Positions 2,804 to 2,962 of a stretch of DNA of 10,449 nucleotides are shown piece after piece. The notes under the pieces were generated by a model. It worked only from the letters and a program-made list of their open reading frames with translations. It did no database searches and had not been told where the DNA came from. Numbering within the stretch: the first letter of the stretch is position 1; every line of letters starts with the position of its first letter. The translations under genes were made by a program, and so were the position numbers. This stretch comes from a virus, in the UHGV virus genome UHGV-1344453. The stretch is one strand, 5' to 3'.

Positions 2804-2828
2804 GTCAGCTTTTGTAAATTATTTGTGC

Positions 2829-2848
2829 GTGGTTGTTCGTGGTTGTTC
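2829..2848. repeat. Perfect tandem duplication of the 10-mer GTGGTTGTTC
   Basis: GTGGTTGTTC at 2829-2838 and 2839-2848. It contains a TTGTTC core that also recurs in tandem at 9900-9917. Confidence 0.6.
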
Positions 2849-2927
2849 AGCGGCATGGCTGGCTTATTTTATCAGGCCCGAACCGTGGTTATTCTCGCCA
2901 CTGTTGCCAGGACGCTGGGACCATTTT

Positions 2928-2962
2928 CCCGCCTGTTAATCTCATCAGCGTTAACAGGCGGG
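2928..2962. promoter_or_regulatory. Perfect 12-bp inverted repeat (CCCGCCTGTTAA-N11-TTAACAGGCGGG) ~90 bp upstream of the capsid gene; candidate operator or RNA stem-loop
   Basis: Left arm 2928-2939 and right arm 2951-2962 are exact reverse complements. No T-tract follows, so it is not a typical intrinsic terminator. Confidence 0.4.

What the first reader, a model, noticed from the sequence alone, without database searches (positions are those of the whole stretch)
2821..2962. Tandem 10-mers and a perfect 12-bp palindrome upstream of the capsid operon; repeat core shared with the element end
Between the early-operon terminator and the capsid gene there is a perfect tandem duplication GTGGTTGTTC x2 (2829-2848) and a perfect inverted repeat CCCGCCTGTTAA-N11-TTAACAGGCGGG (2928-2962). 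A related tandem pair TTGTTCGT x2 occurs at 9900-9917 near the right end. The shared TTGTTC core at two distant sites suggests a common binding factor, possibly a late-gene activator or a host factor.
Basis: seen in the sequence. Interest (0 to 1): 0.45.

Follow-up and report, generated by a model that had tools for sequence, protein, structure and literature searches.

The report
Capsid-operon control region of phage satellite
The repeats and the palindrome are real and conserved: they belong to the control region of the capsid genes of a phage-parasitising island in E. coli, in which a protein-binding repeat array also found at the island's integration ends sits upstream of a weak promoter, and the palindrome is a hairpin in the folded RNA leader that follows.

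Summary
The window is the right 10 kb of a capsid-forming PICI (cf-PICI) inserted in the E. coli thiM riboswitch.

**The repeats.** The "tandem 10-mers" are units 2 and 3 of a three-unit, 10-bp-phased TTGTTC array (2823-2848). An invariant TTTGTAAATTAT block precedes it.

**The promoter.** Then come 19 nt, a weak sigma-70-like promoter (-35 at 2868-2873, -10 at 2890-2895, spacer 16 nt in all 62 distinct relatives) and a leader of about 150 nt.

**Conservation.** The array is present in 82 of 88 related islands. It is there whichever PerC, ProQ, hyp86, RgdR or AlpA allele the island carries.

**Other sites.** The same array lies at the right end (9890-9915), 17 nt from two 12-mers laid out like the annotated phage P4 attP arm repeats. 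In relatives it lies on both att arms and between int and alpA.

**Best reading.** The array is the site of the island's AlpA (Vis/Xis-type) protein and couples excision to capsid-operon activation. The binder is inferred, not shown.

**The palindrome.** It is really 14 bp (2926-2964) and is hairpin H2 of the leader RNA. A covarying long-range helix (2907-2915 with 3014-3022) competes with a terminator-like, SD-sequestering hairpin plus T8 (3016-3053).

**Novelty.** The logic is known from P4, P2 and 186. It was not found described for cf-PICIs.

The parts
2262..2519 (+). PerC-family gene. It is a neighbour and was rejected as the cognate binder of the array.
   Evidence: Pfam PerC 7e-36. Coordinates come from the L001 annotation. 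PerC is absent from many islands that keep the array.
2510..2770 (+). 86-aa protein of unknown function, the last gene of the early operon. Rejected as binder.
   Evidence: No Pfam hit. No homologue was detected by tblastn in more than 20 loci that keep the array, though some of those contigs are short.
2777..2803 (+). Intrinsic-terminator-like hairpin plus T7 that ends the early operon.
   Evidence: Relatives have a hairpin plus T-run at the same place.
2811..2822 (+). Invariant block TTTGTAAATTAT, at about -91 to -80. It marks the left boundary of the conserved packaging-module control region.
   Evidence: Identical in 58 of 62 distinct upstream sequences; mean column identity 0.99.
2823..2848 (+). 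A array: three 10-bp-phased units, TTGTGC (2823-2828), TTGTTC (2833-2838) and TTGTTC (2843-2848). They are centred at about -76, -66 and -56. Proposed AlpA/RDF-type binding site.
   Evidence: Present in 82 of 88 loci. Units are 0.95 identical against 0.82 for the 4-nt spacers between them.
2868..2873 (+). Predicted -35 hexamer TTTATC (TTTACA in type A islands).
   Evidence: Column identity 0.90. The homologous TTTACA-16-TATGTT is the only promoter-like site the scanner finds in L002.
2890..2895 (+). Predicted -10 hexamer TATTCT. The start site is inferred near 2902.
   Evidence: The 16-nt spacer has no indel in any of 62 distinct sequences. The site is below the scanner's threshold in the window, so it is a weak promoter.
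2907..2918 (+). Leader hairpin H1: CCAG-GACG-CUGG. Bases 2907-2915 are also the 5' arm of the long-range helix.
   Evidence: The stem covaries (CCAG/CUGG, CUCA/UGAG, CUCC/GGAG) around a GACG loop (GGCG in L090).
2926..2964 (+). The arms are 14 bp and perfect, with an 11-nt loop.
   Evidence: -25 kcal/mol, z = -7. A homologous stem, (C/G)CCGCCUG...C(A/G)GGCGG, occurs in all types, with G.U and compensatory changes.
3014..3022 (+). GCGUCCUGG, the 3' arm of the long-range helix (antiterminator, anti-sequestor). CGTC(C)TG is nearly invariant in the family.
   Evidence: 9-bp perfect complement of 2907-2915. It is part of the MFE. The pair next to the core is C:G, U:A or G:C in three lineages.
3016..3053 (+). 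Terminator-like hairpin (10-bp stem, 10-nt loop) followed by T8 (3046-3053), directly abutting the capsid ATG. Its 3' arm holds the likely SD, AGGA (3041-3044).
   Evidence: -15.4 kcal/mol, z = -4.3. The alternative conformers are -55.1 and -54.9 kcal/mol. Present in all type B islands and absent in type A.
3054..4224 (+). Major capsid protein gene (HK97 fold family), interrupted by a masked N run. It is the first gene of the packaging operon, which runs through terL to 9409.
   Evidence: Pfam Phage_capsid on both halves. L001 annotation.
9890..9915 (+). Second A array on the attR arm: TTGTTT, TTGTTC, TTGTTC, phased at 10 bp.
   Evidence: An almost identical array lies on the attL arm upstream of int in L005, L019, L045 and L047.
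9933..9956 (+). B pair: TGTGTGGTCAGT x2, a 12-bp tandem that starts 17 nt after the A array. Proposed integrase arm-type sites.
   Evidence: The B sequence differs between islands at different integration sites. The layout matches the annotated 'attP arm sequence repeat' pairs of phage P4.
10023..10036 (+). att core AGAAATACCCGTAT, the right junction of the island, inside the thiM TPP riboswitch.
   Evidence: Comparison of the empty site (L006) with the occupied site (L005) and the window. The Rfam TPP hit is partial.

Best explanation
Bases 2811-3053 are the control region of the packaging (capsid-to-terminase) operon of a capsid-forming phage-inducible chromosomal island.

SHOWN BY SEQUENCE AND COMPARISON

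- An early-operon terminator is followed by an invariant TTTGTAAATTAT block and three TTGTTC units one helical turn apart.
- Next comes a conserved but weak sigma-70-type promoter with a fixed 16-nt spacer.
- Then follows a leader of about 150 nt whose helices covary.
- The same phased TTGTTC array stands on the island's att arms, 17 nt (or 7 nt) from a pair of 12-mers whose sequence differs between integration sites.
- In relatives the array also lies between int and alpA.

INFERRED

- The array is the binding site of the island's AlpA protein (Pfam Phage_AlpA; Vis/Xis/TorI-type winged helix).
- AlpA would polymerise on phased direct repeats. At att it would help Int to excise the island. At its own gene it would autoactivate. 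At about -56 to -76 of the capsid promoter it would recruit RNA polymerase to a poor -35.
- Capsid production would then be switched on together with excision once a helper phage induces alpA.

SECOND LAYER, INFERRED FROM FOLDING AND COVARIATION

- Around it, a long-range helix (2907-2915 with 3014-3022) competes with a hairpin plus U8 (3016-3053) that would terminate transcription or hide the ribosome-binding site just before the capsid AUG.
- Which factor, if any, sets that switch is unknown.
For: Identity of the element
- D5-type primase/helicase, SSB, PerC, HK97-type capsid, S78 protease, portal and HNH are Pfam hits.
- Head-closure and head-tail connector proteins, P27-type TerS and TerL come from the L001 annotation.
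- Full relatives carry int and alpA, as described for EcCIEDL933 (10.1101/2022.09.08.507074).

Array
- It is non-random in the window.
- It is present upstream of the capsid gene in 82 of 88 loci.
- The exact 28-nt pattern is followed by the capsid N-terminus in 120 of 121 occurrences.
- Footprint-like conservation: block 0.99, units 0.95, inter-unit spacers 0.82, region to -35 0.57, -35 0.90, promoter spacer 0.61, -10 0.83.

Promoter
- The spacer is 16 nt in 62 of 62 distinct sequences.
- The scanner picks TTTACA-16-TATGTT as the only promoter-like site in L002.

Same array elsewhere
- Window 9890-9915.
- Both att arms in L005, L019, L045 and L047.
- Both arms of the EDL933 (L004) and EcCICFT073 (L091) islands.
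- 14 distinct array-plus-12-mer-pair contexts.
- Arrays of five to six units lie just 3' of int in the EDL933, CFT073 and O177 types. A further array lies downstream of alpA in L045.

AlpA as the binder
- Every locus in which an int homologue was detected also has an AlpA homologue by tblastn. The six checked are all Pfam Phage_AlpA.
- The alleles share the DR-IRE-EC..T.L.R..R...E..G.FP core.
- AlpA autoactivates PalpA and is required for excision, replication and transfer (PMC6092414; PMC11773190; cf-PICI preprint).
- In PICMI, AlpA is reported to resemble the excisionase TorI structurally and to be needed for excision (PMC10803314).
- RDF sites are direct repeats one helix turn apart (PMC7498355). 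Gifsy-1 Xis uses a tripartite direct repeat (PMC2603039).
- P4 has the same layout of 12-bp arm-repeat pairs upstream of int. P4 Vis is cited as binding attP (PMC2603039); the title of Polo 1996 says it regulates late promoters.

Leader
- The MFE contains the long-range helix, z = -4.1.
- The same LR-plus-H2 architecture appears in most types when the segment from H1 to the CGUC box is folded alone.
- Compensatory pairs in LR, H1 and H2.
- The two conformers are isoenergetic in the window (-55.1 and -54.9 kcal/mol).
Against: - No binding or transcription data exist for this region. The start site, the activation and the AlpA-array contact are all inferred.
- alpA itself lies outside the window.
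- The capsid-upstream array is almost invariant across four AlpA alleles that are only 38-57% identical. A host or helper-phage factor would explain this equally well.
- The att arms of the AlpA94-type island L001 carry only degenerate TTTCG/TTGTGC units.
- EcCICFT073 carries the same AlpA protein as L002 (WP_000953274.1) but has no array upstream of its own late genes.
- K-12 CP4-57 AlpA has no such arrays.
- In PICMI, AlpA did not change transcription.
- The arrays near alpA are on the opposite strand and up to about 300 bp from the gene.
- Leader: the covariation rests on few independent lineages (types A and B, L069, L090).
- A covariance model built from type A does not detect type B.
- Type A islands lack the terminator hairpin.
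- In O157-type leaders the closed form is about 9 kcal/mol more stable than the long-range form. The switch is therefore not uniform across the family.
Confidence: 0.5

Rival explanations
1. The array is bound by a host or helper-phage protein rather than by AlpA. One example would be a response-regulator-type protein that reads direct repeats. Another would be a helper excisionase acting as P2 Cox does on the TTAAAG repeats upstream of P4 PLL. The helper or host would then switch on the capsid operon directly.
For: - The array is nearly invariant whichever early-region alleles the island carries.
- The helper factor that induces PICIs is unknown (PMC6092414).
- P4 carries three 10-bp-phased TTAAAG repeats between vis and sid. 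From my own knowledge, these are cox-box-like and are used by the helper's Cox.
- Packaged cf-PICI capsids are reported even without an inducing phage, which would fit a host factor.
Against: - The same array sits on att arms next to integrase-type-specific 12-mers and around alpA. These are places where an island-encoded RDF is expected.
- Reported helpers such as lambda and phi80 would, to my knowledge, have unrelated excisionases.
- I know of no E. coli regulator with a TTGTTC-N4 direct-repeat site. The nearest I recall, the TorR box CTGTTCATAT, differs (from memory, not tested).
Confidence: 0.2
2. The TTGTTC units are arm-type sites of the island's integrase. The copy upstream of the capsid gene would let Int regulate the operon, or would be a relic of an att arm left when the packaging module was acquired.
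For: - The arrays lie on both att arms.
- P4 Int represses its own promoter (PMC7286903).
- The conserved block starts exactly at the left boundary of the packaging module, and the sequences upstream of it are unrelated between islands.
Against: - In P4 the annotated arm repeats are the 12-bp tandem pairs. These correspond to motif B here.
- Motif B differs between islands at different integration sites, while the TTGTTC units do not.
- A relic would not keep hexamers better than spacers, nor a fixed distance to a conserved promoter, in 82 of 88 loci.
- No 12-mer pair accompanies the capsid-upstream array.
Confidence: 0.1
3. PerC, or the adjacent 86-aa protein or RgdR/DUF4222, is the late activator that binds the tandem repeats.
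For: - PerC is a named transcriptional activator encoded two genes upstream.
- RgdR is reported in all E. coli PICIs analysed and activates LEE1 (PMC3378721).
Against: - The array is present in many islands without PerC (for example L002, L015, L017, L019, L022, L024-L027) and in more than 20 loci with no detectable 86-aa homologue. No RgdR homologue is detected in L022, L052 or L069.
- L002 has a ProQ/FinO gene in place of perC.
- The known PerC/RgdR target, 900 bp upstream of ler, has no phased TTGTTC units.
Confidence: 0.05
4. The palindrome 2926-2964 is a DNA operator for a dimeric repressor that blocks transcription of the capsid operon as a roadblock at +25 to +63. It would not be an RNA hairpin.
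For: - It is a perfect 14-bp inverted repeat placed just downstream of the predicted start.
- It folds equally well on either strand.
- The outer 8 bp, CCCGCCTG/CAGGCGGG, are conserved in type B.
Against: - In type A the homologous stem GCCGCCUGAC/GUCGGGCGGC encloses about 50 nt and contains U.G pairs. In L016, L018 and L022 the changes keep pairing only through G.U on the + strand. That does not fit a symmetric operator.
- In O157 islands the upper stem is rebuilt in another register with a different loop length.
- It is enclosed by a covarying long-range helix.
Confidence: 0.12

Closest known systems
Phage P4 Vis (ORF88, AlpA family) and the P4 attP/int region
   Same: - Both are satellites with a P4-type integrase.
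- 12-bp tandem 'arm repeats' lie on both att arms, one pair about 25 nt upstream of the int start. This is the layout of motif B here.
- Vis is cited as binding attP and being needed for excision (PMC2603039; PMC6092414), and as repressing Pint (PMC7286903). The title of Polo 1996 says it regulates late promoters. One small winged-helix protein thus acts at att and at late promoters.
   Different: - The repeat sequences are unrelated (GGGGGCAT arm repeats; my own reading of a TCCG x3 array in P4).
- I recall Vis repressing PLL rather than activating a capsid operon (from memory, not checked).
- P4 has no capsid genes of its own.
- Vis binding sites were not available to me for comparison.
P2 Cox and 186 Apl, with their phased direct-repeat sites (including the TTAAAG repeats upstream of P4 PLL)
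   Same: - Each is a recombination directionality factor that is also a transcription regulator.
- Their sites are direct repeats one helical turn apart, present both at att and at promoters (PMC7498355).
- P4 has three 10-bp-phased TTAAAG repeats between vis and sid.
   Different: - Cox and Apl mainly repress, except Cox at P4 PLL (from memory).
- They are encoded by the helper or an autonomous phage, not by a PICI.
- The motif is different.
Lambda Xis and Gifsy-1 Xis tripartite sites
   Same: - Three imperfect direct repeats are bound cooperatively next to an Int arm site (PMC2603039).
- Here three units stand 17 nt (or 7 nt) from the 12-mer pair.
   Different: - As I recall, lambda Xis sites are on one arm only and have no promoter role.
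- Here the arrays are on both arms and at a promoter.
AlpA of classical E. coli PICIs (EcCICFT073, EcCIMP1)
   Same: - Same protein family. The EcCICFT073 AlpA protein (WP_000953274.1) is the one annotated in cf-PICI L002.
- It autoactivates and is required for excision.
- EcCICFT073 has the same TTGTTC arrays on its att arms and 3' of int.
   Different: - No AlpA binding site was found described in the papers searched.
- EcCICFT073 has no array upstream of its late genes. The capsid-promoter copy is specific to the cf-PICI packaging module.
Transcription attenuators and translational riboregulators with competing helices (trp-type leaders)
   Same: - Three overlapping segments can form either an antiterminator or a hairpin plus U-run just before the gene.
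- The two conformers are isoenergetic in the window.
   Different: - No leader peptide, ligand or binding protein is identified.
- The antiterminator is a long-range helix across about 100 nt.
- The terminator is absent in type A islands.
- There is no match to any Rfam family.
Pseudomonas aeruginosa AlpA antiterminator
   Same: - It shares the name.
- It acts at a promoter followed by an intrinsic terminator (PMC9371919).
   Different: - From the residue numbering in that paper it is a larger, Q-like protein (residues up to 142) that reads a single GGGACG element between -35 and -10.
- I regard it as unrelated to the 62-94-aa Phage_AlpA proteins here. I considered this lead and dropped it.

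Membership tests
Capsid-forming PICI (cf-PICI) | Packaging module with capsid, prohead protease, portal, head-tail connectors, HNH, TerS and TerL, and no tail or lysis genes. | tested here: met
   Pfam hits for capsid, protease, portal and HNH; ORF map. The L001 annotation supplies head closure, connector, TerS and TerL, and lists no tail or lysis gene in the homologous island.
Capsid-forming PICI (cf-PICI) | int, alpA and pri-rep with an ori just 3' of rep; island size 10-15 kb; a dedicated att site. | tested here: met
   The primase/helicase C-terminus and the iterons at 1310-1515 are in the window. int and alpA are seen in same-site relative L005 and in L001. The att core lies in the thiM leader.
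RDF (Xis/Vis/AlpA-type) binding array | Three or more imperfect direct repeats spaced one helical turn apart. | tested here: met
   Units at 2823, 2833 and 2843, and at 9890, 9900 and 9910. Up to six units in relatives.
RDF (Xis/Vis/AlpA-type) binding array | Located in an att arm next to integrase arm-type sites. | tested here: met
   9890-9915 is followed after 17 nt by the 12-mer pair at 9933-9956, which ends 66 bp from the core. The layout is the same in at least four integration-site types and parallels the annotated P4 arm repeats.
RDF (Xis/Vis/AlpA-type) binding array | A cognate winged-helix RDF is encoded by the element. | tested here: met
   The six AlpA-type genes checked in L001-L005 are Pfam Phage_AlpA. 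Every locus with a detected int homologue also has an AlpA homologue by tblastn. The gene itself is outside the window.
RDF (Xis/Vis/AlpA-type) binding array | The protein actually binds the repeats. | not testable with these tools
   Needs EMSA, footprinting or ChIP. No published site was found.
Activator-dependent sigma-70 promoter (upstream, class I-like site) | -35 and -10 hexamers with fixed spacing, a poor -35, and an activator site centred upstream of -40 on the same helical face. | tested here: met
   TTTATC-16-TATTCT. The spacer is invariant in 62 of 62 sequences. The site is below the scanner's threshold in the window but found in L002. Units are centred at about -56, -66 and -76.
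Activator-dependent sigma-70 promoter (upstream, class I-like site) | A mapped transcription start and activator-dependent transcription. | not testable with these tools
   No start-site or expression data for this region were found in the papers searched.
Intrinsic terminator / attenuator | A GC-rich hairpin immediately followed by a U-run, and a mutually exclusive upstream helix. | tested here: met
   3016-3045 plus T8: -15.4 kcal/mol, z = -4.3. The 9-bp competitor is 2907-2915 with 3014-3022. Conformers are -55.1 and -54.9 kcal/mol.
Intrinsic terminator / attenuator | The switch is conserved across the family. | tested here: not met
   Type A islands keep the long-range helix and H2 but have no hairpin plus U-run before the ATG. 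O157-type leaders favour the closed form by about 9 kcal/mol.
Any described RNA family (Rfam 15) | A match to a curated covariance model. | tested here: not met
   No hit in 2800-3060 at E <= 1. The only relevant hit in the window is the truncated TPP riboswitch at 9949-10083.
P2 Ogr / P4 Delta-type late promoter | A TGT-N12-ACA dyad centred near -55. | tested here: not met
   By inspection of 2835-2862 there is no such dyad. The site consists of direct repeats, not inverted ones.
PerC/Pch-activated promoter | Depends on a PerC-family protein. | tested here: not met
   The array and promoter are conserved in islands without perC. LEE1 upstream DNA lacks the motif.

The most novel reading that the evidence does not exclude
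The capsid operon of cf-PICIs is gated twice by elements not found described in the papers and libraries searched.

1. An 'AlpA box', a phased TTGTTC array used at att, at alpA and at the capsid promoter, would make one small excisionase the master switch for excision and capsid synthesis.
2. A new family of structured leader RNA (H1 with a GACG loop, H2, and a long-range helix) would act as a bistable terminator/antiterminator or ribosome-binding-site switch. It would be set by a trans-acting factor, for example a helper-phage protein or the ProQ/FinO-type protein that some islands encode at this position.

This could account for the reported capsid production both with and without an inducing phage.
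Probability: 0.2. Interest if true: 0.7.

Novelty: new variant of a known kind. Interest (0 to 1): 0.45.

Why it matters
cf-PICIs are recently described satellites that build their own capsids and borrow only phage tails. How their packaging genes are switched on is not addressed in the papers I could read.

- **Testable model.** A defined cis-element shared by the att arms, the alpA region and the capsid promoter suggests that one AlpA-type protein couples excision to capsid synthesis.
- **Annotation.** The motif is simple and could help to annotate PICI ends and regulons.
- **Reported behaviour.** The structured leader with a terminator-like hairpin abutting the capsid start codon suggests a second checkpoint. 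This bears on the report that capsids are made even without induction.
- **Engineering.** Both elements are obvious targets if these islands are engineered as delivery vehicles.
- **If wrong.** If AlpA does not bind the array, the array still marks the site of the unknown host or helper factor that controls the operon.

Tried and rejected
- **PerC, the 86-aa protein, ProQ/FinO and RgdR as binders.** Rejected by co-occurrence across 88 loci and by the absence of the motif upstream of ler.
- **Sigma-54 promoter (TGGCAC-N5-TTGC) in the H1 region.** The GG-N10-GC spacing is not met, by inspection.
- **LexA box and the Ogr/Delta TGT-N12-ACA dyad.** Absent by inspection.
- **Alternative promoters using TTGTCA (2802) or TAAATT (2816).** The spacing is impossible (8 nt).
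- **P. aeruginosa AlpA antitermination.** A different protein and a different element.
- **K-12 CP4-57 alpA/intA as a test case.** No TTGTTC arrays, and its AlpA is too divergent to be informative.
- **Rfam.** No family matches the leader.
- **Phage collection.** No DNA similarity to the 2795-3060 region.
- **Genome-contig scan with the capsid alignment.** Only 4 loci were returned, because the patterns were too specific. The IMG/VR scan gave the working set.
- **Covariance model from type A leaders.** It found type A copies only. In the window it aligned only H2, weakly and on both strands. I could not make a single structural alignment of both leader types, and counted pairs with a script instead.
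- **De novo search for other phased 5-mers in divergent islands.** Nothing clear. In L009 a shared GATAAATAAAT between the int-alpA spacer and the capsid upstream region is only weakly significant.
- **L126, the one array not followed by a capsid gene.** It is a perC-hyp86 duplication junction and is not informative.
- **A 'fourth unit' CGTGGTTATTC at 2884-2894.** It overlaps the -10, is not phased with the array and is not conserved, so I treat it as coincidence.
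Full report
**1. What the window is**

- Pfam identifies these genes (ORF map):
  - the C-terminal part of a D5-type primase/helicase (93-1310);
  - an SSB (1841-2251);
  - a PerC-family protein (2262-2519);
  - an HK97-type major capsid protein (3054-4224, interrupted by a masked N run);
  - an S78 prohead protease;
  - a portal protein;
  - an HNH endonuclease.
- The annotation of a nearly identical island in E. coli SB0258h1 (L001) adds head-closure and head-tail connector proteins, a P27-type small terminase and a large terminase. It also shows int, an AlpA-type regulator, DUF4222 and the primase to the left.
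- This is the gene set of the capsid-forming PICIs described for EcCIEDL933 (10.1101/2022.09.08.507074).
- The right junction is at 10023-10036 (core AGAAATACCCGTAT), inside the TPP riboswitch of thiM. This follows from comparing an empty site (L006), an occupied site (L005) and the window.

**2. The observation**

- The palindrome is longer than reported: 14-bp perfect arms at 2926-2939 and 2951-2964.
- Each repeat cluster has a third unit with one mismatch, one helical turn upstream (TTGTGC at 2823; TTGTTT at 9890).
- TTGTTC-N4-TTGTTC with at most 1 mismatch occurs 4 times against 0.08 expected, and none of 200 shuffles reached 4.
- The three-unit pattern never occurred in 300 shuffles.
- The hairpin has z = -7.

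**3. Comparative anatomy upstream of the capsid gene**

I collected 88 related loci from E. coli genomes, GTDB genomes and IMG/VR. Their 330-nt upstream regions give 62 distinct sequences.

- Sequences upstream of the control region are unrelated between islands. They hold different last genes, with or without a terminator.
- From TTTTGTAAAT onward all islands share one plan:
  1. an invariant TTTGTAAATTAT block (58 of 62);
  2. three (T)TGTTC units phased at 10 bp;
  3. 17 nt (type A: O177, ETEC, L005) or 19 nt (type B: this window, O157);
  4. a -35-like hexamer (TTTACA, TTTACC or TTTATC);
  5. exactly 16 nt in all 62 sequences;
  6. a -10-like hexamer (TATGTT, TATTCT, TATCTT or TAAATT).
- Column identity is 0.99 for the block, 0.95 for the units and 0.82 for the 4-nt inter-unit spacers. 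It is 0.57 between the array and the -35, 0.90 for the -35, 0.61 for the promoter spacer and 0.83 for the -10. This is a footprint-like pattern.
- The scanner finds TTTACA-16-TATGTT as the only promoter-like site in L002. The window's TTTATC-16-TATTCT falls below its threshold, so it is a weak promoter.
- With a start near 2902, which is inferred, the units are centred at about -56, -66 and -76.
- The array is present in 82 of 88 loci.
- The exact 28-nt pattern occurs once per IMG/VR contig. It is followed by the capsid N-terminus in 120 of 121 cases.

**4. The same array elsewhere**

- In the window the second array (9890-9915) is followed after 17 nt by TGTGTGGTCAGT x2 (9933-9956). That pair ends 66 bp before the att core.
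- In L005, an island at the same thiM site, a 70-bp block holding the array and the 12-mer pair lies on both arms (3514-3583 upstream of int; 18544-18613). Two more units lie nearer the core.
- The EDL933 (L004) and EcCICFT073 (L091) islands have the same plan on both arms, but with GGTGTAGTTAAT x2.
- The gcd/hpt-site island L001 has GGTGTATCACTC x2. L022 has GTGCAGTCAGTG x2. L069 has GTGGGGTA-type pairs.
- The 12-mers (motif B) therefore differ between integration sites, while the TTGTTC units (motif A) do not.
- Phage P4 is annotated with 12-bp 'attP arm sequence repeat' pairs on both arms, one pair about 25 nt upstream of int. This is the layout of motif B, so B is best read as the integrase arm-type site and A as the site of another protein.
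- Arrays of five to six A units lie just 3' of int, on the other strand. They sit 270-330 bp upstream of alpA in EDL933-, CFT073- and O177-type islands, and shorter A-like runs lie nearer to alpA.
- In L045 an array lies just downstream of alpA, about 45-75 nt before the next gene's ATG.
- EcCICFT073, a classical PICI without the cf packaging module, has the att and int-proximal arrays but none upstream of its late genes.

**5. Who binds the array**

- Co-occurrence rules out the neighbours:
  - perC is absent from many islands that keep the array, and L002 has a ProQ/FinO gene in its place;
  - no homologue of the 86-aa protein is detected in more than 20 loci that keep the array;
  - no RgdR/DUF4222 homologue is detected in a few.
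- The known PerC/RgdR target, the ler upstream region, has no phased units.
- What every locus with a detected int homologue does encode is an AlpA homologue.
  - The alleles of 62, 73, 74, 92 and 94 aa that I checked are all Pfam Phage_AlpA.
  - They share the DR-IRE-EC..T.L.R..R...E..G.FP core.
- Published work shows that AlpA autoactivates its promoter and is required for excision, replication and transfer of E. coli PICIs and of EcCIEDL933.
- In PICMI, AlpA is reported to resemble the excisionase TorI structurally and to be needed for excision.
- Recombination directionality factors bind direct repeats one helical turn apart. Some, such as 186 Apl, also regulate promoters (PMC7498355).
- Gifsy-1 Xis uses a tripartite direct repeat, and P4 Vis is cited as binding attP (PMC2603039). 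The title of Polo 1996 says Vis regulates late promoters.
- I therefore propose that the array is an AlpA site used at att, at alpA and at the capsid promoter.
- The gap from the array to the 12-mer pair is 17 or 7 nt. The gap from the array to the -35 is 17 nt in type A and 19 nt in type B. This suggests, speculatively, that the protein helps Int and RNA polymerase from a similar position.
- Weak points:
  - there are no binding data;
  - the promoter copy is invariant across divergent AlpA alleles, which a host or helper factor would explain as well;
  - the att arms of L001 are degenerate;
  - AlpA had no transcriptional effect in PICMI.

**6. The palindrome and the leader**

- The palindrome lies at about +25 to +63 of the predicted transcript.
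- In O157 islands the outer 8 bp are kept, but the upper stem is rebuilt in another register with a different loop.
- In type A the homologous stem GCCGCCUGAC/GUCGGGCGGC encloses about 50 nt.
- Variants L016, L018 and L022 keep pairing through G.U pairs that are valid only on the + strand. This fits an RNA hairpin (H2) and not a symmetric operator.
- Upstream lies a small hairpin, H1, with a GACG loop (GGCG in L090). Its stem covaries: CCAG/CUGG, CUCA/UGAG, CUCC/GGAG.
- H1 overlaps the 5' arm of a long-range helix to the nearly invariant CGUC(C)UG box.
  - In the window this is a perfect 9-bp pairing, 2907-2915 with 3014-3022. It is part of the MFE, z = -4.1.
  - The pair next to the GACG:CGUC core is C:G, U:A or G:C in three lineages, and the outer pairs also differ by type.
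  - Most leader types fold into this long-range helix plus H2 when the segment from H1 to the CGUC box is folded alone.
- In type B, including the window, the 3' arm can instead pair with CAUCAGGAC (3016-3045; -15.4 kcal/mol, z = -4.3).
  - That hairpin is followed by U8, which abuts the AUG. Its 3' arm contains the only SD-like AGGA.
  - The two conformers are -55.1 and -54.9 kcal/mol in the window.
  - In O157-type leaders the closed form wins by about 9 kcal/mol.
  - Type A has no such terminator.
- The leader is therefore a conserved structured RNA. In this window it also has the anatomy of an attenuator or translational switch. What sets the switch is unknown.
- There is no Rfam match and no similarity to phage genomes.

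**7. Comparison with the known, and novelty**

- The logic is that of P4 Vis, P2 Cox and 186 Apl: one excisionase-type protein reads phased direct repeats at att and at promoters.
- The P4 att layout is reproduced here.
- New relative to the papers I could search:
  - the motif itself;
  - its presence at the capsid-operon promoter of cf-PICIs;
  - the structured leader.
- I rate this a new variant of a known kind. It is of moderate interest (0.45) because the binder and the switch are inferred, not shown.

**8. Verdict**

A common factor is likely, and it probably activates the late (capsid) operon, but it is most likely AlpA rather than a neighbouring small regulator.
- The palindrome belongs to the RNA leader, not to the DNA site.

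Noticed in passing
window 9949-10120 (att core 10023-10036): The island is inserted inside the thiM TPP riboswitch. An intact aptamer would span about 9987-10083. Its first 36 nt, with the CUGAGA motif, are left at attL some 15 kb away. Rfam scores only 36.5 bits against a 54.3-bit threshold. thiMD therefore loses its promoter and its aptamer. In L005 the same 70-bp repeat (array plus 12-mers) precedes both int and thiM, so the island end might drive thiMD.
   Followed up: partly
window 1310-1515: A dense cluster of GGTGAACAGT-type iterons in both orientations lies directly 3' of the primase/helicase gene. This is probably the island's replication origin.
   Followed up: no
window 9933-9956; L001 4304-4327 and 19408-19431; L004 1425-1448 and 16653-16676: 12-bp tandem pairs that differ between integration sites lie on both att arms, one pair about 25 nt upstream of int. 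The layout is that of the annotated attP arm repeats of phage P4 (L093 3942-3965 and 4151-4174).
   Followed up: yes
window 9485-9523: Three 11-bp-phased GTTTTTGCGGG-like repeats lie just after terL. Their function is unknown.
   Followed up: no
window 7342-7375 and 9722-9755: A 34-nt segment between HNH and terS (the likely cos region) is 74% identical to a segment near the right end. Both contain CAAATTTTTA.
   Followed up: no
window about 1518-1562 and about 3770-3790: Runs of N mask part of a small ORF and the middle of the capsid gene, which splits the capsid ORF into two frames in the ORF list.
   Followed up: no
L011 about 1470-1490; also L030, L045, L052, L082: A perfect palindrome TCGTGACACGA lies next to a minus-strand TTGTTC-type array, about 100-150 bp upstream of alpA. 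It is a candidate operator for whatever controls alpA induction.
   Followed up: no
L002 5206-5736 and homologues in about 15 loci: Some islands carry a ProQ/FinO-family (RNA-binding) gene at the position where others have perC, two genes upstream of the structured leader.
   Followed up: partly
L009 (Symbiopectobacterium) 2458-2468 and 9770-9780: This divergent island lacks the TTGTTC array. It has GATAAATAAAT once in the int-alpA spacer and once upstream of the capsid gene. That could be a co-varying motif, but it is weak: 12 of 100 shuffles give two or more matches.
   Followed up: partly
L126 10798-11120: The array, the promoter and the 5' half of H1 are fused to a duplicated perC-hyp86 segment. 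This is a rearrangement or an assembly artefact, and the only case where the array is not followed by the capsid gene.
   Followed up: partly
L093 (phage P4) 9176-9205 and about 3975-4005: P4's annotated 'ori type 2 repeats' are three 10-bp-phased TTAAAG units between vis and sid. By my own reading, CTTCCG/TGTCCG/AATCCG units phased at 10 bp lie between the att core and the arm-repeat pair next to int.
   Followed up: partly
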